Source: Candidatus Zambryskibacteria bacterium RIFOXYD1_FULL_40_13 (GTDB lineage: Bacteria; Patescibacteriota; Minisyncoccia; Phycocordibacterales; DATDWN01). Taken from it: a DNA stretch of 61,044 nucleotides. Location of the stretch: positions 304-61,347 of the forward strand of contig MHWY01000005.1 of assembly GCA_001824295.1 (NCBI GenBank). Direction: 5' to 3'. Position numbers and translations under genes: made by a program. The notes beneath the pieces were generated by a model. The model was given only the letters and a program-made list of their open reading frames with translations, was not told where the DNA came from and did no database searches. How positions within the stretch are numbered: the stretch's first letter is position 1; each line of letters begins with the position of its first letter. Positions 2,872 to 35,229 of this stretch are shown piece by piece.

Positions 2872-2961
2872 TGGCGGACAGAGTGGGATTCGAACCCACG
2901 GTACCCGTTAGGGTACGGCGGTTTAGTAAACCGCTACCTTAAGCCACTCGGTCATCTGTCC
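2872..2961 (-). tRNA. tRNA-Ser, anticodon apparently ACU (A34), CCA encoded
   Basis: Hand-folded class II cloverleaf: GGACAGA TG ACCGAGTGGCTTAAGGT A GCGGT TTACTAA ACCGC CGTACCCTAACGGGTACC GTGGG TTCGAAT CCCAC TCTGTCC G CCA. Confidence 0.8.
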
Positions 2962-3012: not shown

Positions 3013-4071
3013 ATGCTGGAGTTGTCTAAATACAACAGGATAAGATTTCATAAGGAAGGAGTTCAGACTAAGTTTATTTTAAAAGCAAGGAAAACTTTAA
3101 ATTTAACTGAGCTGGAGTTATCAAGGAAATTAAAATTGTGTCGACGGACGATTACTGATTGGACAAAAGAAAGAGTTACTATATCTCAAATTGGTGCAAA
3201 TAAAATATCTAGCTTGGCAAAGATATCAATTCCCAAAGGTTACGACATTATTGACTGGAAGGAACACTGGCGAAAGGCGGGGAGGGTGGGGGCTATGACT
3301 AGATTTGTAAGATGTGGAAGGGTTTGTATAGATGAAAAATACCGAAAAATGAAGTGGAATGAATGGTGGAGGAATGTCGGGCAGTACAAAAAGCCACCTC
3401 CAGGTTTTCAGTCTTTGGTAAAGATAAAGATACCACGAAAGAGTAAGTTGCTCGCTGAGTTTATTGGCATTTTGCTTGGAGATGGAAATATATCCCCATA
3501 TTATATTAGTATCACCTTGTCTTCAAAGGAAAAAGAATACATTAAATATATTTGTAAAATTATTGAGAAACTTTTTAGAGTTGTACCAAAGATATTTAAA
3601 CATAAAGAAAAAAAAGCTGTAACTATTGTTGTTAATCGAAAACAACTCGTCGACTTTTGTCAGGAAGTTGGGTTTAAAAAGGGAAACAAGGTGTCCAACC
3701 AGGTTGATATTCCCCAATGGATTAAAAAAAGTAAAATGTATAGTTATGAATGTATCAGGGGCTTGATTGATACTGATGGATGTTTTTTCTTCCATAACTA
3801 TATTGTTAATGGAAAAAAATATTTTTATTTCAAAATAGCTTTTACAAGTGCGTCTATTCCTTTAAGGTTGTCAGTAAAAAAAATTTTGATAAATTCAGGT
3901 TTTGGTGTAAGAATGAGTAAGGCGGGGAAGGGAAAAGGTGGAGATGTTCGTATTGATGGTGGTTTTTATGTGAAAAAATATATAAAAGAAATAGGCTCAC
4001 ACAACAAAAAACACCTAGATAAAATCGAAAAATGGAGGGTTGCTCCGAATGGTAAGGTAGCGGTTTGCTAA
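3013..4071 (+). CDS. LAGLIDADG-family homing endonuclease (free-standing, two-motif)
   Basis: Motifs FIGILLGDGNI and IRGLIDTDGCFFF. ATG at 3013 lies 6 nt after TATAAT (3001-3006); the ORF track begins at TTG 2998. The last 38 nt overlap tRNA-Ser(GCU). Confidence 0.85.
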   Translation: MLELSKYNRIRFHKEGVQTKFILKARKTLNLTELELSRKLKLCRRTITDWTKERVTISQIGANKISSLAKISIPKGYDIIDWKEHWRKAGRVGAMTRFVRCGRVCIDEKYRKMKWNEWWRNVGQYKKPPPGFQSLVKIKIPRKSKLLAEFIGILLGDGNISPYYISITLSSKEKEYIKYICKIIEKLFRVVPKIFKHKEKKAVTIVVNRKQLVDFCQEVGFKKGNKVSNQVDIPQWIKKSKMYSYECIRGLIDTDGCFFFHNYIVNGKKYFYFKIAFTSASIPLRLSVKKILINSGFGVRMSKAGKGKGGDVRIDGGFYVKKYIKEIGSHNKKHLDKIEKWRVAPNGKVAVC

Positions 4072-4120
4072 ACCGTGAGGGTCTTAAAACCCTCTATGGG
4101 TTCGACTCCCATACCCTCCG
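4034..4120 (+). tRNA. tRNA-Ser(GCU)
   Basis: GGAGGGT TG CTCCGAATGGTAAGGT A GCGGT TTGCTAA ACCGT GAGGGTCTTAAAACCCTCTA TGGGT TCGACTC CCATA CCCTCC G. Long variable arm; CCA not encoded. Confidence 0.85.
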
Positions 4121-4158
4121 CAACAAAGACTCAAGAAAGGAGGGTTTTAATTGTGTAT

Positions 4159-4815
4159 TTAATGTGCAAGAGTGAAGGCCACAACTTCGCGAGCGCCAGA
4201 TGAAAGTAGGGTAGAGCGAGCTTCGGACAGAGTGCTTCCTGTGGTTACAACATCATCAATCAAAATTATATATTTACCCTCAACTCCTGGATTAGCCCCA
4301 AACGAGCCAACGAGATTTGTTATTCTCTCTTGTTTTGTCTCACTTCTACTTTGTTTGGGAGTATCTTTTACTTTTTCTAACCATTGTGGGGCGTAGAGTA
4401 ATTTCCTTTCCAAGTCATTTTGAATAATTGATTTTGCGATAAGCTCACTCTGGTTGTAACCTCGTTCTATCCGCCTCTCACTTGTGATAGGTATAGGTAT
4501 CAAAACAAAATTGGCGTCACTATCAAATATTATTGTGTCGGACATATAGACGAGGATTTCCTCAAAGAGTATTTTTCCAAGATATTCAAGGGGCCGAGTG
4601 TTTTCCTTGTACTTCAATTCCCAAACAATCGCTCTGACGCGGTTGTCCTTGTATTGAAAGAGGGGGTGAATCCAGTCAGTCTCAGGGCTTTCACTCGCTC
4701 TCGGCAGGTCATTTATCCTTTCAGGAGTCAATTTTTTTACAATGGTAAAATCTGTTCTGGGTGGCAGAATAAAATCAAAAATTGATACAAAAAACTCTTT
4801 AATACTTTTAGACAT
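4159..4815 (-). CDS. comFC: ComF-family phosphoribosyltransferase-domain protein
   Basis: 218 aa with the PRTase motif YIILIDDVVTTGSTLSEA near the C-terminus. Confidence 0.7.
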   Translation of the reverse strand: MSKSIKEFFVSIFDFILPPRTDFTIVKKLTPERINDLPRASESPETDWIHPLFQYKDNRVRAIVWELKYKENTRPLEYLGKILFEEILVYMSDTIIFDSDANFVLIPIPITSERRIERGYNQSELIAKSIIQNDLERKLLYAPQWLEKVKDTPKQSRSETKQERITNLVGSFGANPGVEGKYIILIDDVVTTGSTLSEARSTLLSSGAREVVAFTLAH

Positions 4816-29296: not shown

Positions 29297-29394
29297 TCCC
29301 ATTAGAAGTTTATGAAAATCTATAGTAAGATATGTTTTATTGATATTTGTTTAGTATTAAATTTGTAAAAGAACGTTACTTTACTTCTAACGGG

Positions 29395-30555
29395 ATGAAT
29401 ATACTCTATAAAACACGAAATAGTATAATACACTTTTTTTATGTATGGGCGCTAAAACCAGTGCTTTTTCTCTTTGACCCAGAAGACATACACAATCTCT
29501 TTACAAAAACAGGCCATTTTCTTGGAAGATTCGGCATAACAAGGTGGAAGACAAGAATGCTTTTTGGGTACAAAAACTCGCGCCTGACGCAGGAAGTCTT
29601 GGGAATAAAGTTTGAAAACCCAATCGGTCTTTCTGCCGGCTTTGATAAGGATATAATGCTGACGGAAATTATTTCTGATGTTGGTTTTGGTTTTGAGGAA
29701 GTTGGTTCTGTCACTTCTCGTCCATACGCGGGTAATCCTAGACCAAGACTGTGGAGGTTAACAAAGTCTAGAAGTCTTGGTGTTTGGTTTGGGCTAAAGA
29801 ATCAAGGGGTAGAGGTATTGTCAAAGAAACTTGCGGGCAAGGTTCACAGGTTGCCTATTGGTGTTAATGTGGCTTTTACCAACTGCAAAGAAAATCTGGA
29901 GATTTCCTCTGCTATACCTGACTATGTTGCTGGGGCAAAAGTAATGGAGAAATATGCAGACTATCTGACAATAAACCTAAGTTGTCCAAACACATCTGGT
30001 GGCATGCCGTTCCTCCTCCCTGACAACTACGAGAAGCTCATGGTTGAGATAGATAAAATTTCTACGAGCAAACCTATTTTTGTAAAAATAAATCCAGATA
30101 TGACTCATGCTGAGATAGATAAATTCCTTGAGATAAGTTTGCGACACAGAGTGCGTGGAATCATTTGTTCAAATCTTACAAAGAACTACAGTGATGCAGA
30201 CAAGAGAGACGCCCTCCCACCACACGGGGGATTGTCTGGGAAACTGGTTTATCCAAAAGCTCTCGACCTGCTTTCCTATATGTATAAAAAAGCCCGCCTG
30301 CCATCGCCTGCAGGCTCAGCCAATGGCGGGCAGGTTGGAAACAAATTTGTCTTTGTCTTTGTTGGTGGGGTTTTCTCCGCGGATGATGCTTACAGGGCAA
30401 TTCGCCAAGGGGCGACTCTGATTCAGCTTATTACAGGGATGATTTTTGAAGGCCCACAGGTTATAAGTGAAATCAATCGTGGACTAGTGGAGAGAATGAA
30501 CCGCGATGGTTTCAAAAATATAAGTGATGTAGTGGGGTTCGACAATAAGAGATGA
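29395..30555 (+). CDS. pyrD: Dihydroorotate dehydrogenase (class 2-like)
   Basis: GLSAGFDKD, FEEVGSVT, INLSCPNT and GGLSG motifs. Start taken at MNILYK; the track ORF begins at an upstream TTG. Confidence 0.85.
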   Translation: MNILYKTRNSIIHFFYVWALKPVLFLFDPEDIHNLFTKTGHFLGRFGITRWKTRMLFGYKNSRLTQEVLGIKFENPIGLSAGFDKDIMLTEIISDVGFGFEEVGSVTSRPYAGNPRPRLWRLTKSRSLGVWFGLKNQGVEVLSKKLAGKVHRLPIGVNVAFTNCKENLEISSAIPDYVAGAKVMEKYADYLTINLSCPNTSGGMPFLLPDNYEKLMVEIDKISTSKPIFVKINPDMTHAEIDKFLEISLRHRVRGIICSNLTKNYSDADKRDALPPHGGLSGKLVYPKALDLLSYMYKKARLPSPAGSANGGQVGNKFVFVFVGGVFSADDAYRAIRQGATLIQLITGMIFEGPQVISEINRGLVERMNRDGFKNISDVVGFDNKR

Positions 30556-31666: not shown

Positions 31667-31983
31667 CCCGGTAGTGAAATTTTAGTTCGATTATGTTCTA
31701 TACATACGTATTAAAGAATAAAGATGATAAACTGTATATTGGATATACAAAAGATCTAAAACAAAGATTTGCAGAACATAATCAAGGGTTAAATCTTTCG
31801 ACTAAAGCCAGTCGCCCGTGGAAGATTATTTATTATGAGTGCTGTCTAGATATTAATGATGCAAAGCGAAGAGAGGGGTATTTTAAAACCAGTCAAGGCC
31901 GCAGGTTACTACGACGGAGACTGAAGGAGTATTTTTATAAAATAAGGTCGAAAGATTTAACAAACTAAAATTCTACTACCGGG
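31667..31983 (+). mobile_element. 317-bp element: GIY-YIG ORF between 19-bp terminal inverted repeats, flanked by an ATGA duplication
   Basis: Left TIR CCCGGTAGTGAAATTTTAG (31667-31685). Right TIR CTAAAATTCTACTACCGGG (31965-31983). ATGA at 31663-31666 and 31984-31987. The same terminus family recurs at 32.7, 45.4 and 54.2 kb. Confidence 0.6.
31693..31968 (+). CDS. GIY-YIG (URI-domain) nuclease family protein, 91 aa
   Basis: FYTYVL...LYIGYT...RFAEHN...REGYFK, the classic short GIY-YIG pattern. Confidence 0.85.
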   Translation: MFYTYVLKNKDDKLYIGYTKDLKQRFAEHNQGLNLSTKASRPWKIIYYECCLDINDAKRREGYFKTSQGRRLLRRRLKEYFYKIRSKDLTN

Positions 31984-32664
31984 ATGATTCATTTTGACAA
32001 AGTATCAAAGATATACCTCGATAATTCAATTGCTCTAGAGGATATCTCGTTCTCTATTGAACCAAAGGAGTTCGTCTCTATTGTGGGGCATTCTGGCGCG
32101 GGAAAGACGACACTACTAAAGATGTTTCTTGGAGAAGAGCTCCCTACAAAAGGCAAGATTTATTACGAGTCCATAGACATAAGCACACTGAAAAAAAGTC
32201 AAATCAACGACTTCCGTCGCAAAATTGGTGTAGTTTTCCAAGACTTTAGACTTATACCCGACAAAAACGTATACGAAAATATAGCCTTCGCCATGGAGGC
32301 TTCTGGCAGAACTGACGAGGAAATAGAGGCGGATGTACCGCACGTCTTGGGGCTGGTAGACCTTGAGAGGAAGATGTGGAATTTCCCACATGAACTTTCT
32401 GGTGGAGAGAAACAGAGAGTGTCTATCGCCAGAGCTATAGTCAACCAACCGGATGTGGTTATTGCCGATGAACCGACTGGAAACCTAGACCCCCTAAACA
32501 CCTACGACATTGTTCAGATTCTAAAGAAGATAAATGACCTTGGTACTACAGTTGTCTTAACCACTCACAACAAGGGCGTGATTGATTCCCTGAAAAAAAG
32601 AGTTTTGACTATGGAGAACGGAAAAATAATTCGCGATGATAAAGAGGGAAAATACGTCATTTAG
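31984..32664 (+). CDS. ftsE: Cell-division ABC ATPase FtsE
   Basis: MIHFDKVSKIY..., Walker A GHSGAGKTT, signature LSGGEKQR, Walker B VVIADEP. Confidence 0.9.
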   Translation: MIHFDKVSKIYLDNSIALEDISFSIEPKEFVSIVGHSGAGKTTLLKMFLGEELPTKGKIYYESIDISTLKKSQINDFRRKIGVVFQDFRLIPDKNVYENIAFAMEASGRTDEEIEADVPHVLGLVDLERKMWNFPHELSGGEKQRVSIARAIVNQPDVVIADEPTGNLDPLNTYDIVQILKKINDLGTTVVLTTHNKGVIDSLKKRVLTMENGKIIRDDKEGKYVI

Positions 32665-32699
32665 TAAATTAACGAGCAAAGCGACTATAATTTACTTAA

Positions 32700-32864
32700 C
32701 CCAGTGAAATGATTTTAAATTAAAGACATGAAAAGAAATACAAACAAACCGTTTGCAATAAACCAAAAAGTACATTACAGTGTTTATTATCAGAATTTAA
32801 AATCAAGATTTGAATTATCAAATCTTATTTCACAGGGTAGTGATTTTCAAAAACTCACTACCGC
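32700..32864. repeat. Degenerate palindromic elements of the GTAGTGAA family in the ftsE-ftsX spacer
   Basis: CCCAGTGAAATGATTTTAAATT (32700-32721) pairs with AATTTAAAATCA...ATTTCACAGGG (32794-32837). A mini hairpin GGGTAGTGA-N12-TCACTACCG lies at 32835-32864. Confidence 0.55.
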
Positions 32865-32882
32865 TCGTTAAGAAAATCAACT

Positions 32883-33821
32883 ATGCTCTGGATAAAAATA
32901 AAAAGAATAGTTCACGCGGGTTTCTATAGTTTCTGGCGAAACGGGTTTGTTTCGCTTTCTTCCATCCTAGTAATGGTTGTTACTCTTTTTGTCATTGGTT
33001 CTACGATTTTTTCTGGTGCAATACTTGGTTCAACCCTAAATCAAATCAAAGACAAGGTTGATATAAATGTTTATTTTGTAACTACTGCTCCAGAAGAAGA
33101 GATACTTTCAATAAAGACGAGTCTAGAACAGCTTCCAGAGATTGCTCCTCCTGTAGTGTATGTTACAAGGGAAGAGGTGTTGGCAGATTTTAAGAATAGA
33201 CACCAGAATGACGAGTTCACACTTCAGGCTCTAGACGAGCTCGGAGAGAACCCACTTGGGGCAACGCTTAACATAAAAGCCAAAGACCCTTCACAGTACG
33301 AAAGCATAGTCAGCTTCTTTGGCCTGAAGGGTTCAGAGTGTAGTTCCTTGGAGAGTAAGTTTTCTATTATAGATAAGGTTAACTATTGTCAGAACAAAGA
33401 TGCTATTGATCGCTTGACCAATATAATAAACTCAGCAAACAGACTTGGATTTATTCTTACAATCTTCCTTATCGTCATCTCTATACTGATTACATTCAAC
33501 ACACTTAGACTGGTTATATATATGTCTAGGGATGAAATATCTGTTATGAGACTTGTGGGAGCTTCTACAAACTATATCCGCGGTCCATTCTTTGTGGCTG
33601 GAGCAATATATGGCTTCATCTCGGCTATTATTACGCTTATACTCTTTTATCCTATTACTATCTGGCTTGGAAATACGACGGAGAACTTCTTTGTTGGTCT
33701 AAACATTTTCCACTACTACACATCGAACTTCGGTGAAATATTCCTTATTATTGTTTGTTCTGGAGTGGCCATTGGTTCGATTTCATCTTTTCTGGCAACT
33801 AGAAAATATCTGAAAGTTTAG
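32883..33821 (+). CDS. ftsX: Cell-division permease-like protein FtsX
   Basis: 312 aa with an N-terminal TM helix, a periplasmic domain and three C-terminal TM helices. It is adjacent to ftsE. Confidence 0.85.
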   Translation: MLWIKIKRIVHAGFYSFWRNGFVSLSSILVMVVTLFVIGSTIFSGAILGSTLNQIKDKVDINVYFVTTAPEEEILSIKTSLEQLPEIAPPVVYVTREEVLADFKNRHQNDEFTLQALDELGENPLGATLNIKAKDPSQYESIVSFFGLKGSECSSLESKFSIIDKVNYCQNKDAIDRLTNIINSANRLGFILTIFLIVISILITFNTLRLVIYMSRDEISVMRLVGASTNYIRGPFFVAGAIYGFISAIITLILFYPITIWLGNTTENFFVGLNIFHYYTSNFGEIFLIIVCSGVAIGSISSFLATRKYLKV

Positions 33822-33869: not shown

Positions 33870-34115
33870 ATGTACACCAAAAAAACCGTTGTCGTAATCG
33901 ACATCAAGGCCACCACCCCGGAAACACTCTACTGTTTCAGGGAATTTCTGAGGACTGAAATGATCGCCCCGATTCTTTCTAGTGATGGATTGGACGAAAA
34001 ACGTGTGGCTTACTTCGCCGGATGCTTCACACCAGAAGCGTCAAGGCGAGTTGAGACGTGGCTACACGAACACGGAATCGATTGTTGCGAGGTGGTGATC
34101 GAGACTACGGAGTGA
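33870..34115 (+). CDS. Small hypothetical protein in a GC-enriched islet
   Basis: 81 aa from ATG 33870, preceded by AAGGGAGAG (Shine-Dalgarno-like) and followed by a GC-rich terminator. Confidence 0.5.
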   Translation: MYTKKTVVVIDIKATTPETLYCFREFLRTEMIAPILSSDGLDEKRVAYFAGCFTPEASRRVETWLHEHGIDCCEVVIETTE

Positions 34116-34121
34116 CACCAG

Positions 34122-34150
34122 GAGCGGACGCGAGTCCGCTCTTCGCTTTC
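34122..34150 (+). terminator. Rho-independent terminator
   Basis: GAGCGGAC-gcga-GTCCGCTC followed by a T-rich tail. Confidence 0.65.
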
Positions 34151-34187
34151 TTGTAAAATCACTATTTTTCGGGTATTGTTTTAACAT

Positions 34188-34248
34188 TGCGAGATCACCC
34201 GTCTCGACTTGGCAAGCTCGCGAGCCGAGGTGGATCTAATGGTAGGAT
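34188..34248 (+). pseudogene. 5' portion (acceptor strand to D-arm) of a split tRNA-Gln-like gene, carrying a 37-nt insert
   Basis: TGCGAGA TC a[CCCGTCTCGACTTGGCAAGCTCGCGAGCCGAGGTGGA]TCTAATGGTAGGAT. TGCGAGA is the exact complement of TCTCGCA at 34703-34709. Confidence 0.5.
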
Positions 34249-34250
34249 AT

Positions 34251-34502
34251 ATGAGTTGTCACGTTTATGTATTAAAAAGCAATAGACATGATAAATCTTA
34301 TGTTGGGTCAACAAATGATCTTGAAAGAAGATTATCAGAACACAATAACGGCAAATCAGCTTATACTTCAAAATATAAACCATGGAGTATAATTTATACT
34401 GAAGAGTTTAGTGTACTAAAGGAAGCTCGGGAAAGAGAGAGGTATTTAAAGGGTCGTAGCGGGAGAAGGTTTTTGAAAAAGATTTTTGATAATAAAAAAT
34501 GA
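34251..34502 (+). CDS. GIY-YIG (URI-domain) nuclease family protein, 83 aa
   Basis: HVYVL...SYVGST...RLSEHN...RERYLK. It is a paralog of the ORF at 31693-31968. The start choice (34251) is uncertain. Confidence 0.8.
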   Translation: MSCHVYVLKSNRHDKSYVGSTNDLERRLSEHNNGKSAYTSKYKPWSIIYTEEFSVLKEARERERYLKGRSGRRFLKKIFDNKK

Positions 34503-34516
34503 CTTCTGCACAAAGC

Positions 34517-34587
34517 TGGGAGATCGTCTAATGGTAGGACGCATCCCTCTGAAGGATGCTATCTTGGTTCGAGTCCAAGTCTCCCAG
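34517..34587 (+). tRNA. tRNA-Gln(CUG)
   Basis: TGGGAGA TC GTCT AATGGTA GGAC G CATCC CTCTGAA GGATG CTAT CTTGG TTCGAGT CCAAG TCTCCCA G. U1-A72 is typical of tRNA-Gln. Confidence 0.85.
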
Positions 34588-34609
34588 CTTTGTGCAGAAG
34601 TCTGAATAA

Positions 34610-34710
34610 TCGTCTAATGGCCCGTCTCGACTTGGCAAGCTCGCGAGCCGAGGCGGATAGGACACATCCCTCTGGAGGATGTTATCTTGGTTCGAGTCCA
34701 AGTCTCGCAG
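34610..34710 (+). pseudogene. tRNA-Gln-like body (positions 8-73) lacking its 5' acceptor strand, with a 37-nt insert in the D-loop
   Basis: TC GTCT AATGG[CCCGTCTCGACTTGGCAAGCTCGCGAGCCGAGGCGGA]TA GGAC A CATCC CTCTGGA GGATG TTAT CTTGG TTCGAGT CCAAG TCTCGCA G. Confidence 0.5.
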
Positions 34711-34740
34711 CTAGGAGTTTTTTGTTAAAAAAACGACGCC

Positions 34741-34869
34741 GCAAGAGACTTGGACTCGAACCAGGGAAGGGGTCGGGAAACGGGAGTTTCCCGTGTAGGA
34801 AGGCAGTGAGCGAAGCGAACGTTGGAAAACCGTCGGTTTCCAAGGAGTGAGAGATCCAAGTCTCCCAGC
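34741..34869 (+). ncRNA. Conserved structured element, copy X2 (unknown class; paralog at 20849-21039)
   Basis: Core blocks at 34764-34783 and 34787-34846 match X1. Hairpins CGGGAAAC-GGGA-GTTTCCCG and TTGGAAAACC-GTC-GGTTTCCAA. Closing helix GAGACTTGGA/TCCAAGTCTC. Confidence 0.4.
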
Positions 34870-34926
34870 CCTGCTCAGAATTAACCTTCTAAACCCTCGT
34901 GAGCTGAAGTTTGGTATAATGTAAAC

Positions 34927-35229
34927 ATGTTTAAAAGATATATCTCATATTTAAGAAATAACCCAGAAAAGTATTGGTTTAGGGCCAAGTGGTACGGGTG
35001 GGGATGGACCCCAGCTAGGTGGCAGGGCTGGCTTGTGACTCTCATTTATATTATCGGGATACTTTCCTTTGCTTTGACGCTTGATGAAAATACGCAGGAC
35101 AAGGAGGCAGTCTTCCGCCTTATTTTGCCTGTCGTGTTACTCACTGGTATTTTTTTGTGGATTGCTTACAAGACGGGCGAGAAGCCACACTGGCATTGGG
35201 GCCCACCAGATGACAAGGATTTGATATAA
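34927..35229 (+). CDS. Small membrane protein (hypothetical)
   Basis: 100 aa with two TM helices. TATAAT (34915-34920) lies 6 nt upstream of the ATG. Confidence 0.5.
   Translation: MFKRYISYLRNNPEKYWFRAKWYGWGWTPARWQGWLVTLIYIIGILSFALTLDENTQDKEAVFRLILPVVLLTGIFLWIAYKTGEKPHWHWGPPDDKDLI

What the first reader, a model, noticed from the sequence alone, without database searches (positions are those of the whole stretch)
34188..34710. tRNA-Gln-like gene apparently split in its D-arm by a 415-bp cassette carrying a GIY-YIG ORF and an intact tRNA-Gln(CUG)
Seen: TGCGAGA-TC (34188-34196) is the exact 7/7 complement of the acceptor 3' strand TCTCGCA (34703-34709) that ends an otherwise complete tRNA body at 34610-34710. 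That body starts at position 8 (TC GTCT AATGG...), and what precedes it (TGAATAA) cannot pair. Joining 34196 to 34612 would give a full cloverleaf with anticodon loop CTCTGGA (CUG). ATC occurs at both junctions (34194-34196 and 34609-34611). The intervening DNA holds a second D-arm copy (TCTAATGGTAGGAT, 34235-34248), a GIY-YIG ORF (34251-34502) and an intact paralogous tRNA-Gln(CUG) (34517-34587). Inference: either a mobile GIY-YIG/tRNA cassette disrupted one tRNA-Gln gene while delivering a replacement, or this is a noncanonical intron or split arrangement that needs RNA-level joining. Neither has been described for bacteria as far as I know.
Basis: partly seen in the sequence, partly recalled or inferred. 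Interest (0 to 1): 0.8.

Follow-up and report, generated by a model that had tools for sequence, protein, structure and literature searches.

The report
GIY-YIG cassette splitting a tRNA-Gln gene
A resident glutamine tRNA gene has been broken apart by a small selfish DNA cassette that carries a nuclease gene and a working replacement tRNA, and the same tRNA-linked nuclease-plus-hairpin arrangement recurs in many bacterial phyla without, as far as I could find, having been described.

Summary
The two halves at 34188-34196 and 34609-34710 belong to one tRNA-Gln(CUG) gene, here called B. But the 3' body carries a 37-nt GC-rich hairpin (E2) in its D-loop. A second copy of that hairpin (E1) follows the 5' stub. 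Only joining the halves and also removing E2 gives a tRNA, 70/72 identical to uninterrupted genes in related metagenomes. B lies at the conserved ftsX-linked tRNA-Gln position.

The locus is 100% identical in 8 assemblies. In 78 related loci from several phyla, 66 of 91 homologous 80-90 aa GIY-YIG ORFs abut a same-strand tRNA. For 55 of these 66, a hairpin-interrupted copy of that tRNA's 5' part lies upstream. I also found:
- mirror-image 3' versions;
- intact tRNAs nested inside split tRNAs without any ORF;
- one occupied/empty syntenic pair.

Best reading: a selfish, homing-type cassette invaded B and supplies the functional tRNA (A). RNA-level joining is not supported. Hairpin function and nuclease specificity remain unknown.

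The closest analogues are mitochondrial mobile endonuclease ORFs that carry a duplicated gene end, and phage T4 SegB. I rate it a new variant of a known kind, with interest about 0.7.

The parts
34151..34179 (+). Promoter-like TTGTAA-17 nt-TATTGT, 8 nt upstream of the 5' stub of tRNA-Gln B.
   Evidence: Read. It matches 8 of 12 consensus positions, below the scanner's threshold of 9. The flank TTTTCGGGTATTGTTTT..CAT is nearly identical upstream of the uninterrupted tRNA in L166. A terminator-like hairpin of the preceding ORF lies at 34120-34143.
34188..34196 (+). 5' stub of the resident tRNA-Gln(CUG) gene 'B': acceptor 5' strand TGCGAGA plus positions 8-9 (TC).
   Evidence: unique 9-mer; complement of 34703-34709. 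It lies at the syntenic position downstream of ftsX.
34198..34234 (+). Hairpin E1 (CCCGTCTCG...CGAGGTGGA), inserted at tRNA position about 10/11. G10 is replaced by A at 34197.
   Evidence: two copies in the window, none in shuffles. Fold -13.4 kcal/mol. Relatives carry the same family at the same tRNA position: L009, L046, L060.
34235..34248 (+). D-arm copy TCTAATGGTAGGA(T), tRNA positions about 11-25, abutting the ORF start. GGTAGGA may act as a ribosome-binding site (inference).
   Evidence: repeat D5, 13/13 identical to 34527-34539. Fragments in other loci end at variable tRNA positions directly before the ATG.
34251..34502 (+). GIY-YIG nuclease ORF, 83 aa. It is a minimal prokaryotic Slx1-like (UPF0213) domain with no extra domain.
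   Evidence: Pfam PF01541, E = 4e-18. PDB sequence matches 1ywl and 1zg2 (UPF0213), then SLX1. Y6, Y17, R27, H31 and E63 are invariant in 36 homologues.
34501..34602 (+). Intact tRNA-Gln(CUG) 'A' (34517-34587) with a 16-nt leader and a trailer that pair, extending the acceptor stem to 23 bp.
   Evidence: ARAGORN. Rfam tRNA 61.1 bits. Perfect inverted repeat I1. Fold -59.5 kcal/mol, z = -9.9. Similar leader/trailer stems flank tRNA-Gln genes in L153, L110, L121, L175 and L141.
34603..34620 (+). TGAATA, then B positions 7-18 (ATCGTCTAATGG). TGAATAATC aligns with a tRNA 5' end (TGNNNNATC) but cannot pair with TCTCGCA.
   Evidence: repeat D4. ARAGORN finds no tRNA here, with or without E2.
34621..34657 (+). 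Hairpin E2 (CCCGTCTCG...CGAGGCGGA), inserted in the D-loop of B after the conserved GG.
   Evidence: Fold -18.2 kcal/mol, z = -2.4. This is the commonest insertion site in relatives.
34658..34710 (+). Remainder of tRNA-Gln B: D-stem 3' strand, anticodon arm (CUG), T-arm, acceptor 3' strand TCTCGCA and discriminator G.
   Evidence: Partial Rfam tRNA match, 24.9 bits, below the gathering score. Stub plus 34612-34620 plus this segment gives an ARAGORN tRNA-Gln that is 70/72 identical to L212, L207 and L109.
34745..34763 (-). Inverted 19/19 copy of T-arm plus acceptor 3' strand (TGGTTCGAGTCCAAGTCTC). It forms a 19-bp hairpin with the end of B.
   Evidence: (I3, I4). Origin unexplained; probably a rearrangement scar.
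34764..34854 (.). 91-nt G+C-rich spacer of unknown origin.
   Evidence: No Rfam match. No relic GIY-YIG reading frame and no homologue in any fetched locus. The fold is not better than shuffles.
34855..34880 (+). Third copy of an A-type tRNA 3' end plus a trailer-like flank (TCCAAGTCTCCCAG CCCTGCTCAGAA).
   Evidence: repeat D2, 85% identical to 34574-34599. Interpreted as the remnant of an earlier tRNA copy (inference).

Best explanation
The locus is a resident tRNA-Gln(CUG) gene (B) that a selfish DNA cassette has invaded in its D-arm.

**What the cassette is.** It spans about 34197-34608. It consists of a GC-rich palindromic hairpin (E1), a short D-arm piece, an 83-aa minimal Slx1-like GIY-YIG nuclease gene, and a complete tRNA-Gln(CUG) gene (A) with its own pairing leader and trailer.

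**What happens to each part.**
- The host's 5' stub keeps the native promoter and serves as the leader of the nuclease mRNA.
- tRNA A supplies the function.
- The displaced 3' body of B is a pseudogene and carries a second, solo copy of the hairpin (E2).
- No RNA joining is needed or expected.

**How it spreads (inferred).** By analogy with free-standing homing endonucleases, the nuclease is inferred to cut cognate tRNA genes. Repair then copies the cassette. Because the cassette carries tRNA sequence at its borders, tRNA homology alone is enough and an intact tRNA is always restored. The hairpins are inferred to be cis elements of the same system. They interrupt the duplicated tRNA segment, which would destroy a target site and suppress deletion between the direct repeats. 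They can also insert alone.

**Status of each step.**
- Shown: the anatomy, its recurrence, presence/absence polymorphism, and the identity of B and A.
- Inferred: nuclease activity and specificity, the repair pathway, and the role of the hairpins.
For: **Gene B is real and native.**
- Stub plus body minus E2 gives a tRNA-Gln(CUG) that is 70/72 identical to uninterrupted genes.
- At least 120 metagenomic loci hold that uninterrupted 5' half.
- ftsX-to-tRNA-Gln synteny appears in at least 16 loci.
- L166 shares the promoter-like flank.

**The architecture recurs widely.**
- Of 91 homologous ORFs in 78 loci from Patescibacteria, Ignavibacteria, Bacteroidota and others, 66 have a same-strand tRNA starting within 150 nt (Gln, Arg, Asn, Leu and others).
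- Of those 66, 55 have an upstream copy of that tRNA's 5' part scoring above all 330 shuffles.
- 44 of the 55 copies start at tRNA position 1, and aligned blocks are 97.7% identical.
- Inserts sit after tRNA index 8-11, 16-18 or 21-23.

**Hairpin termini are conserved across phyla.** The pattern is CCYGYC...GRCRGG.

**Close parallels to this window.**
- L061 and L046 have 5' fragment, ORF, intact tRNA, then a hairpin-bearing 3' body.
- L009 and L010 are syntenic relatives with the same design.

**ORF-less nested cassettes.** L110, L121, L141 and L155 hold an intact, stem-flanked tRNA-Gln inside the D-loop of a split tRNA-Gln. In L121 and L141 the nested tRNA is of a different sequence type.

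**Mirror-image 3' versions exist.** In L083 and L187 the hairpin sits in the T-loop.

**Gain or loss is visible.**
- L172 is occupied and L200 is empty, in 86%-identical syntenic flanks.
- Only 1 of 101 uninterrupted B-type loci has the ORF upstream.

**Lineages are isotype-specific.**

**The protein looks functional.** Catalytic residues are invariant.

**Precedents.**
- SegB, a GIY-YIG homing enzyme, recognises the conserved T-loop motif of tRNA genes (PMC2330249).
- Mitochondrial endonuclease ORFs carry a replacement gene end and displace the native end as a pseudogene (PMC3630166).

**Hairpins move on their own.** A 42-nt family-like palindrome forms an exact 14-codon in-frame insert in the dihydroorotate dehydrogenase gene. 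The closest homologues lack it.
Against: - No cleavage activity or target is known for this protein.
- At 83 aa it has no DNA-binding domain.
- The prokaryotic Slx1-like clade was described as vertically inherited repair enzymes, not selfish ones (PMC1564403).
- The intact tRNA next to the ORF keeps the same D-arm sequence as the fragments. A D-arm-specific nuclease would therefore also cut its own locus.
- All 8 assemblies of this species are identical, so no polymorphism is seen at this locus itself.
- The hairpin's role is guessed. The strand asymmetry that would point to an RNA role is weak and was measured on a set selected on the + strand.
- The order of events cannot be reconstructed.
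- 34713-34880 remains unexplained.
- Fragments that match the local tRNA in every isotype could mean target duplication at insertion rather than carried tRNA sequence.
Confidence: 0.6

Rival explanations
1. **Palindrome-with-cargo transposition.** The mobile unit is the GC-rich palindrome itself. Its loop can be empty (E1, E2, the insert in the dihydroorotate dehydrogenase gene), hold a tRNA (A, L110, L141) or hold the nuclease gene (second GIY-YIG at 31693-31968). The Slx1-like structure-specific nuclease acts as its 'transposase' on extruded hairpins, and tRNA genes are preferred targets because they form cruciform loops.
For: - Inverted repeats flank tRNA A, the nested tRNAs and the second GIY-YIG ORF.
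- A solo hairpin lies in a protein gene.
- Tandem hairpin arrays occur in L030, L062 and L024.
- Insert sites share structure (position 10/11, D-loop, anticodon loop, T-loop) but no sequence.
- In L017 and L023, 95% identical over 686 nt, the hairpin interior is swapped while the termini are kept.
- The nearest solved relatives are structure-specific SLX1 nucleases.
Against: - The leader/trailer stems of tRNA A do not share the CCYGYC...GRCRGG termini. They also flank tRNA-Gln genes that are not nested (L153), so they may be ordinary precursor-tRNA stems.
- Only three hairpins were found in 61 kb, and GC-rich hairpins are not generally enriched.
- No transposase-like chemistry is known for GIY-YIG enzymes.
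Confidence: 0.15
2. **Domesticated arrangement.** The small nuclease is a host gene embedded in tRNA operons. The tRNA fragment plus hairpin is its leader, providing the promoter, mRNA stability or autoregulation. The split B gene is a by-product of promoter capture.
For: - The ORF always sits behind a tRNA promoter.
- The ORF is tightly fused to the tRNA. In about half of the loci the first in-frame stop lies inside the tRNA, for example T8-A9-G10.
- Catalytic residues are conserved.
- The family was viewed as repair enzymes, and one fusion to a TrmH-like D-loop methyltransferase is reported (PMC1564403).
Against: - Occupancy is patchy: 1 of 101 B-type loci, and the L172/L200 pair.
- Tandem stacked units occur in L054, L083 and L085.
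- Nested foreign tRNAs occur without any ORF.
- Pseudogenised host tRNA halves are typical of selfish insertion, not of a regulated host operon.
Confidence: 0.12
3. **Local duplication and decay.** Tandem duplication of a tRNA-Gln gene, followed by random insertions and deletions, produced the fragments. The GIY-YIG gene merely landed between the copies.
For: - Several partial tRNA copies and an inverted copy in 700 nt suggest rearrangement.
- 34713-34880 looks like scar tissue.
Against: - The same ordered design, with the same hairpin family at the same tRNA positions, recurs in 55 of 66 loci across phyla and nine isotypes.
- Fragment B and tRNA A differ in acceptor stem and flanks.
- B is the syntenic gene.
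Confidence: 0.1
4. **RNA-level solution.** B is a functional split or intron-containing tRNA, whose halves are joined or trans-annealed after transcription and whose hairpin is removed as a novel bacterial intron.
For: - The 7/7 acceptor complementarity across 415 nt is real.
- Hairpins sit at loop or junction positions, as noncanonical archaeal introns do.
Against: - An intact tRNA with the same anticodon lies inside the 'intron'.
- The join keeps E2 and is not tRNA-like.
- In most relatives the 5' fragment has no 3' partner and ends at arbitrary positions.
- The hairpins are blunt stems with no bulge-helix-bulge geometry, and no group I or II intron match was found.
- Excision of A by RNase P and the 3'-end processing nucleases would sever the precursor (inference).
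Confidence: 0.03

Closest known systems
Mobile endonuclease ORFs ('mORFs') of fungal mitochondria that carry a duplicated gene end (Allomyces macrogynus atp6; Glomus sp. atp6, atp9, cox2, nad3; PMC3630166)
   Same: - A free-standing endonuclease ORF, GIY-YIG in atp9, inserts in a gene together with a foreign copy of the displaced gene part.
- The hybrid gene stays functional.
- The native part survives next to it as a pseudogene.
- Presence varies between close relatives.
   Different: - Those targets are protein-coding genes, and the 3' end is duplicated.
- The enzymes are large LAGLIDADG or HEase-type GIY-YIG proteins.
- They have no palindromic hairpin component.
- Here the target is a bacterial tRNA gene, usually its 5' part.
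- Here the nuclease is a minimal Slx1-like domain.
Phage T4 SegB, a free-standing GIY-YIG homing endonuclease in the tRNA gene cluster (PMC2330249)
   Same: - A GIY-YIG enzyme encoded among tRNA genes.
- Its 27-bp site contains the conserved T-loop motif of a tRNA gene.
- It drives inheritance of itself and the neighbouring tRNA genes.
   Different: - SegB is a multi-domain phage protein.
- It causes no partial tRNA duplication, has no hairpins and does not nest a tRNA in a tRNA.
- No phage homologue of the window protein was found.
Prokaryotic Slx1-like / UPF0213 standalone GIY-YIG proteins (PDB 1ywl, 1zg2; PMC1564403)
   Same: - Best sequence matches.
- Same minimal size.
- Same conserved Tyr, Tyr, Arg, His and Glu.
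- No C-terminal Asn stood out among the conserved columns.
   Different: - The family was described as vertically inherited and repair-related.
- A link to tRNA genes, fragments and hairpins is not mentioned in that analysis. It notes only one fusion to a TrmH-like (tRNA G18) methyltransferase.
Integrase-mediated islands and prophages that integrate into tRNA genes and restore them (established knowledge, not tested here)
   Same: The element carries a copy of part of the tRNA. Integration therefore leaves an intact gene plus a displaced partial copy.
   Different: - Those use tyrosine or serine recombinases and an identical core site, usually at the tRNA 3' end, and are kilobases long.
- Here there is no recombinase.
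- The unit is about 0.3-0.4 kb.
- It is mostly the 5' part that is duplicated.
Mobile GC-rich palindromes inside genes: yeast mitochondrial GC clusters, double-hairpin elements, Rickettsia palindromic elements (recalled from memory; a lead, not a test)
   Same: - Short GC-rich palindromes in an AT-rich genome.
- They insert into functional genes, including in frame in protein genes (dihydroorotate dehydrogenase insert).
   Different: - There is no sequence relationship.
- Those elements are not tied to a GIY-YIG gene or to tRNA loop positions.
Archaeal split, permuted and multi-intron tRNA genes (PMC3978253, title and abstract only; it appeared in the result list)
   Same: A tRNA gene is interrupted at noncanonical positions, including the D-arm.
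   Different: - Those depend on bulge-helix-bulge motifs and a splicing endonuclease, and they are the only copy of the tRNA.
- Here there is no such motif, the organism is bacterial, and an intact copy lies alongside.

Membership tests
GIY-YIG nuclease superfamily | GIY-YIG domain profile match above the curated threshold | tested here: met
   PF01541: 65.9 bits against a cut-off of 22.6, E = 4e-18, residues 3-72.
GIY-YIG nuclease superfamily | Conserved catalytic Tyr (GIY), Tyr (YIG), Arg, His/Tyr and Glu | tested here: met
   Y6, Y17, R27, H31 and E63 are invariant in 36 homologues.
GIY-YIG nuclease superfamily | Nuclease activity | not testable with these tools
   Needs biochemistry.
Prokaryotic Slx1-like / UPF0213 clade | Closest to UPF0213 and SLX1 rather than to the HEase or UvrC clades; minimal domain without auxiliary domains | tested here: met
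   PDB sequence search: 1ywl 3.6e-6, 1zg2 7.4e-5, SLX1 6seh 0.012, I-TevI 1mk0 0.28. The protein is 83 aa. The NCBIfam group I intron endonuclease model scores only 23.8 bits against a cut-off of 56.
Prokaryotic Slx1-like / UPF0213 clade | Absence of the C-terminal Asn typical of the UvrC/HEase lineage (PMC1564403) | tested here: inconclusive
   No Asn lies among the invariant or near-invariant C-terminal columns. No structural superposition was done.
Homing endonuclease gene (free-standing) | Presence/absence polymorphism at a fixed site in otherwise syntenic DNA | tested here: met
   L172 is occupied and L200 is empty. Only 1 of 101 B-type tRNA-Gln loci is occupied upstream. Not seen within this species, where 8 assemblies are identical.
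Homing endonuclease gene (free-standing) | Site-specific cleavage of the empty allele, and resistance of the occupied allele | not testable with these tools
   The intact tRNA beside the ORF keeps the same D-arm as the fragments (97.7% identity), so resistance is not evident from the sequence.
Homing endonuclease gene (free-standing) | Co-conversion or transfer of flanking donor sequence | tested here: inconclusive
   tRNA A, with its foreign-type leader and trailer, lies inside native gene B. The nested tRNAs of L121 and L141 differ from their host genes. No donor was identified.
tRNA intron (group I/II, or archaeal bulge-helix-bulge type) | Intron ribozyme fold, or a bulge-helix-bulge motif at the exon-intron junctions | tested here: not met
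   There is no Rfam intron match in the window region or in 20 relatives. The hairpins are blunt stems whose first and last bases pair with each other. ARAGORN's intron mode finds nothing.
Split tRNA gene (Nanoarchaeum type) | Halves are the only source of that tRNA and carry complementary joining sequences | tested here: not met
   An intact tRNA-Gln(CUG) lies between the halves. Most 5' fragments in relatives lack any 3' half.
Integrase-mediated tRNA-targeting island | Tyrosine or serine recombinase gene within the inserted DNA | tested here: not met
   The insert of about 412 nt holds only the 83-aa GIY-YIG ORF and a tRNA.

The most novel reading that the evidence does not exclude
The hairpin-interrupted tRNA fragment may be a working part of the system rather than a scar. 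As RNA or single-stranded DNA, its two tRNA-derived arms would pair with the cognate tRNA gene. The conserved hairpin would protrude as a three-way junction. The minimal Slx1-like, structure-specific GIY-YIG nuclease would recognise and cut that junction. This would be a nucleic-acid-guided homing system, and it would retarget simply by copying part of whatever tRNA gene it enters.

This reading would explain four things:
- why an 83-aa nuclease with no DNA-binding domain shows isotype-specific lineages;
- why the fragment always matches the neighbouring tRNA;
- why tRNA sequence flanks the hairpin on both sides;
- why the hairpin termini are conserved across phyla.
Probability: 0.08. Interest if true: 0.92.

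Novelty: new variant of a known kind. Interest (0 to 1): 0.7.

Why it matters
- **A function for a common 'hypothetical' family.** It would give the abundant small 'GIY-YIG nuclease family' (UPF0213) genes of Patescibacteria, Bacteroidota and Ignavibacteria a concrete biology. They would be tRNA-gene-resident selfish cassettes, in a clade so far regarded as repair enzymes.
- **A new way to invade an essential gene.** An element could enter an essential bacterial RNA gene harmlessly by bringing or rebuilding the tRNA, including tRNA genes nested inside tRNA genes.
- **Horizontal replacement of tRNA genes.** Cassettes of this kind could swap tRNA genes between lineages.
- **A testable protein and DNA-structure pair.** A conserved GC-rich palindrome can be tested directly against an 83-aa nuclease.
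- **Practical consequences.** These loci create tRNA pseudogene fragments and spurious ORFs, and contigs often break there in metagenome assemblies. tRNA finders miss the interrupted copies.

Tried and rejected
- **Rfam.** A search of the region at E up to 10, and of 20 related loci at E up to 0.1, found only tRNAs and chance microRNA-like hairpin hits. No family covers the hairpin.
- **Phages.** A protein search found no match, so a phage origin is not supported.
- **Defence and naming libraries.** PADLOC and NCBIfam gave only weak sub-threshold hits.
- **Relic ORF in 34590-34960.** A profile search of all six frames found nothing. The 91-nt spacer has no homologue in 215 loci.
- **GC-rich hairpin enrichment in the window.** The first script was faulty and found 0. 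The corrected scan gave 18 hairpins against 7-15 in shuffles, so there is no general enrichment.
- **RNA versus DNA role of the hairpin.** The + strand is somewhat more stable (28 versus 16 units; 53 versus 28 G-U pairs; p about 0.02). But the units were selected on the + strand, so I treat this as inconclusive.
- **Promoter scan.** It does not call the site upstream of 34188. By eye that site matches 8 of 12 positions.
- **Failed or wasted calls.** The first attempt to fetch related loci failed because the alignment was too diverse. One alignment used wrong coordinates and should be ignored; it was redone.
- **Literature.** Nine searches found no description of tRNA-linked UPF0213 cassettes. 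One candidate paper (PMC2447202) did not hold the relevant text.
- **Archaeal-type intron.** Considered and rejected: the host is bacterial (ftsEX, RF-1/RF-2 family genes) and there is no bulge-helix-bulge motif.
Full report
**1. What is in the sequence**

They also add several. In order on the + strand:
- a terminator-like hairpin of the upstream ORF (34120-34143);
- a promoter-like TTGTAA-17-TATTGT (34151-34179; 8 of 12 by eye, below the scanner's threshold);
- TGCGAGATC (34188-34196), followed by a single A;
- a 37-nt hairpin, E1 (34198-34234);
- the D-arm copy TCTAATGGTAGGAT (34235-34248);
- an 83-aa GIY-YIG ORF (34251-34502; Pfam E = 4e-18);
- an intact tRNA-Gln(CUG), 'A' (34517-34587), whose acceptor stem is extended to 23 perfect base pairs by its leader and trailer (-59.5 kcal/mol, z = -9.9);
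- TGAATA;
- ATCGTCTAATGG (34609-34620);
- a second copy of the hairpin, E2 (34621-34657; one mismatch to E1);
- the rest of a tRNA, from TAGGAC to TCTCGCA-G (34658-34710).

Downstream lie an inverted 19/19 copy of the T-arm and acceptor strand (34745-34763), a 91-nt spacer, and a third copy of a tRNA 3' end with a trailer-like flank (34855-34880).

**2. Checking the observation**

- The 9-mer TGCGAGATC occurs once in the 61-kb window on either strand.
ARAGORN does not recognise it as a tRNA, with or without its intron option.
- Removing E2 as well gives a canonical tRNA-Gln(CUG). It is 70/72 identical to uninterrupted genes in L212, L207 and L109.
- So the two halves do belong to one gene, 'B'. 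But the 3' body is not 'otherwise complete'.
- The region 34100-34950 is 100% identical in eight contigs from different assemblies and samples. This excludes an assembly artefact but gives no within-species variation.

**3. B is the resident gene and A looks imported**

- An exact-pattern scan for the uninterrupted 5' half of B found at least 120 metagenomic loci. Nearly all are complete tRNA-Gln genes.
- In at least 16 of them an ftsX homologue lies upstream on the same strand, as in the window (ftsE/ftsX at 31984-33821).
- L166 has almost the same promoter-like flank directly in front of an uninterrupted gene.
- tRNA A differs from B in the acceptor pair 3:70 and at a few other positions.
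- A also carries a pairing leader and trailer that resemble those of tRNA-Gln genes in other lineages (L153, L119, L110, L121).

**4. The architecture is general**

The closest protein relatives with synteny (L009, 76% identity; L010, 69%) show the same design: a tRNA-Gln 5' fragment carrying one or two hairpins, then the ORF, then an intact tRNA-Gln.

A scan of one genome per species returned 80 loci from Patescibacteria, Ignavibacteria, Bacteroidota, Margulisbacteria and others. Counts:

| Measure | Result |
|---|---|
| ORFs with a same-strand tRNA starting within 150 nt, usually within 10 | 66 of 91 (in 78 non-redundant loci) |
| tRNA isotypes involved | Gln 29, Arg 22, Asn 5, Leu 5, five others 1 each |
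| Loci with an upstream copy of that tRNA's 5' part scoring above all 330 shuffles | 55 of 66 |
| Copies that start at tRNA position 1 | 44 of 55 |
| Identity in aligned blocks | 1646/1685 (97.7%) |

- The copies are interrupted by inserts of 18-87 nt after tRNA index 8-11, 16-18 or 21-23. They end at variable positions directly before the ATG.
- The inserts are GC-rich hairpins with conserved termini: CCCGCCTCG...CGAGGCGGG, CCCGTCTCG...CGAGGCGGA, CCTGCCCGAC...GGCGGG, or the minimal CCTGCCTGCCGGCAGGCAGG. They are sometimes in tandem.
- No Rfam family matches them.
- In about half of the loci the first in-frame stop of the ORF lies inside the tRNA. In 15 loci it is T8-A9-G10.

**5. Variants that illuminate the window**

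- **3' bodies.** L061 and L046 also have hairpin-bearing 3' bodies downstream of the intact tRNA. So the window's '5' stub, ORF, intact tRNA, 3' body' is a recurrent form.
- **Mirror-image loci.** These place the ORF after the tRNA and duplicate the tRNA 3' end with a hairpin in the T-loop: L083 (three tandem units), L187, L016, L047, L090.
- **Nested tRNAs without any ORF.** Several metagenomic loci hold an intact, stem-flanked tRNA-Gln inserted in the D-loop of another tRNA-Gln gene: L110, L121, L141, L155, L119. In L121 and L141 the nested tRNA is of a different sequence type from the split host gene.
- **Occupied versus empty site.** L172 and L200 share 86%-identical upstream DNA and the downstream flank. 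About 300 nt (fragment, hairpin, ORF) is present only in L172.
- **Patchy occupancy.** Only 1 of 101 uninterrupted B-type loci has the ORF upstream. About a dozen have a different GIY-YIG subfamily downstream.
- **Isotype-specific lineages.** The most similar elements share the tRNA isotype.
- **Fast-changing hairpin interiors.** L017 and L023 are 95% identical over 686 nt, yet have different hairpin interiors with the same termini.

**6. The protein**

- It is a minimal GIY-YIG domain.
- Its best solved relatives by sequence are the UPF0213 proteins 1ywl and 1zg2, then SLX1. I-TevI is marginal.
- Tyr6, Tyr17, Arg27, His31 and Glu63 are invariant in 36 homologues.
- It scores below threshold for the group I intron endonuclease model and has no phage homologue.
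- The phylogenomic study of the superfamily treats this prokaryotic Slx1-like clade as vertically inherited and repair-related. It notes one fusion to a TrmH-like methyltransferase, which acts on G18 in the tRNA D-loop (PMC1564403).

**7. Most likely mechanism**

- *Shown.* A resident tRNA gene is split. An intact tRNA with the same anticodon and a nuclease gene lie in the gap. The design recurs across phyla. It is polymorphic between related genomes.
- *Inferred.* The nuclease initiates gene conversion at cognate tRNA genes. This is how SegB acts; its site includes the T-loop motif (PMC2330249). Because the cassette has tRNA sequence on both sides, repair needs only tRNA homology and always restores an intact tRNA. 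This parallels the mitochondrial endonuclease ORFs that bring a replacement gene end and leave the native end as a pseudogene (PMC3630166).
- *Why most loci lack a 3' body (inference).* Most loci would lose the 3' body by recombination between the long direct repeats. The window, L061 and L046 have kept it.
- *The hairpins (inference).* I regard them as cis elements that interrupt the duplicated segment, and so destroy the target and suppress deletion. They can also insert alone.
- *The ATC at both junctions.* It fits either a short staggered cut or a degenerate carried 5' end (TGAATAATC). I cannot decide between these.

**8. Weak points**

- No activity or target is known.
- The protein has no DNA-binding domain.
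- The intact tRNA keeps the presumed target.
- The hairpin's role is unproven. The strand-asymmetry test is biased.
- 34713-34880 is unexplained.
- The order of events cannot be reconstructed.

**9. Rivals**

- A palindrome-with-cargo transposon using the structure-specific nuclease (0.15).
- A domesticated nuclease in tRNA operons (0.12).
- Plain duplication and decay (0.10).
- RNA-level joining or a new intron (0.03).

The last is contradicted by the intact tRNA inside the gap, the E2-bearing join, the partnerless fragments in relatives, and the lack of any intron signature.

**10. Novelty**

Nine full-text searches found no description of tRNA-linked UPF0213 cassettes, hairpin-interrupted tRNA fragments, or tRNA genes nested in tRNA genes in bacteria. 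A study of rRNA insertions in candidate phyla radiation bacteria notes GIY-YIG ORFs in non-intron insertions at the tips or bases of rRNA stem-loops (PMC11270868), which may be related. The general strategy is known from mitochondria and phage T4, so I rate this a new variant of a known kind, with interest about 0.7.

Noticed in passing
window 30293-30334 (+), inside ORF 29347-30555: A 42-nt GC-rich palindrome (CCCGCCTGCC...GGCGGGCAGG) has the same kind of termini as the tRNA hairpins. It forms an exact 14-codon in-frame insert (ARLPSPAGSANGGQ) in a dihydroorotate dehydrogenase gene. Solved dihydroorotate dehydrogenases and the closest homologues (73-74% identical) lack it.
   Followed up: yes
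window 31667-31984 (ORF 31693-31968, +): A second, 91-aa GIY-YIG ORF lies between the release-factor gene and ftsE and is not followed by a tRNA. A 17-nt inverted repeat flanks it (CCCGGTAGTGAAATTTT / AAAATTCTACTACCGGG). A T-loop-like AGTTCGATT lies just before the ATG, so the ORF sits in the loop of a long minihelix-like stem.
   Followed up: partly
window 34501-34602; L153, L110, L121, L175, L141: tRNA-Gln genes of this clade often have a leader and trailer that pair and extend the acceptor stem. In the window this gives 23 perfect base pairs (z = -9.9). That is unusual for bacterial precursor tRNAs and suggests processing of a double-stranded stem.
   Followed up: partly
L016-L095 (for example L017, L023, L030, L052): In about half of the related loci the GIY-YIG ORF has no stop codon of its own. 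The first in-frame stop lies inside the downstream tRNA; in 15 loci it is T8-A9-G10. RNase P processing would therefore leave a non-stop mRNA.
   Followed up: no
L141 13494-13674; L110 about 1521-1760; L155 about 2398-2680; L121: Complete tRNA-Gln genes are nested inside the D-loop of another, split tRNA-Gln gene, with no ORF in the insert. In L141 and L121 the inner and outer tRNAs are of different sequence types (coordinates for L110 and L155 refer to my reoriented copies).
   Followed up: partly
L083 1379-2440; L187 (reoriented copy) 4385-4765: A mirror-image architecture: intact tRNA, then the ORF, then a copy of the tRNA 3' end with the hairpin in the T-loop. L083 has three tandem units, each including the terminator.
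   Followed up: partly
L017 versus L023, hairpins at about 1451-1480 and 1443-1480: Two loci that are 95% identical over 686 nt carry hairpins with identical termini (CCCGC...CGAGGCGAG) but unrelated interiors of 30 and 38 nt. This suggests rapid turnover or replacement of the hairpin core.
   Followed up: no
window 34713-34880: This stretch holds an inverted 19/19 copy of the T-arm and acceptor strand, a 91-nt G+C-rich spacer with two small hairpins and no homologue, and a third A-type tRNA 3' end with a trailer-like flank. It is probably the scar of an earlier event but is unexplained.
   Followed up: partly
L100, L199, L202, L212, L214, L124; L009 2430-2675: A different GIY-YIG subfamily (start M..Y.YILEC.D..LYVG.TNNL) lies 80-250 nt downstream of tRNA-Gln genes. 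It is preceded by GC-rich structured spacers. In L212 a tRNA 3'-end fragment follows it.
   Followed up: no
window 2872-2961 (-): ARAGORN calls a tRNA-Ser with anticodon ACT, unusual for bacteria, about 1 kb from a tRNA-Ser(GCT) at 4034-4121. I did not examine it.
   Followed up: no
L158 (tRNA-Gln at about 282-353 in my reoriented copy): This tRNA-Gln gene has a B-type 5' acceptor strand (TGCGAGA) but an A-type 3' strand (TCTCCCA), which gives a C:C mismatch at 3:70. It may be a conversion chimera.
   Followed up: no
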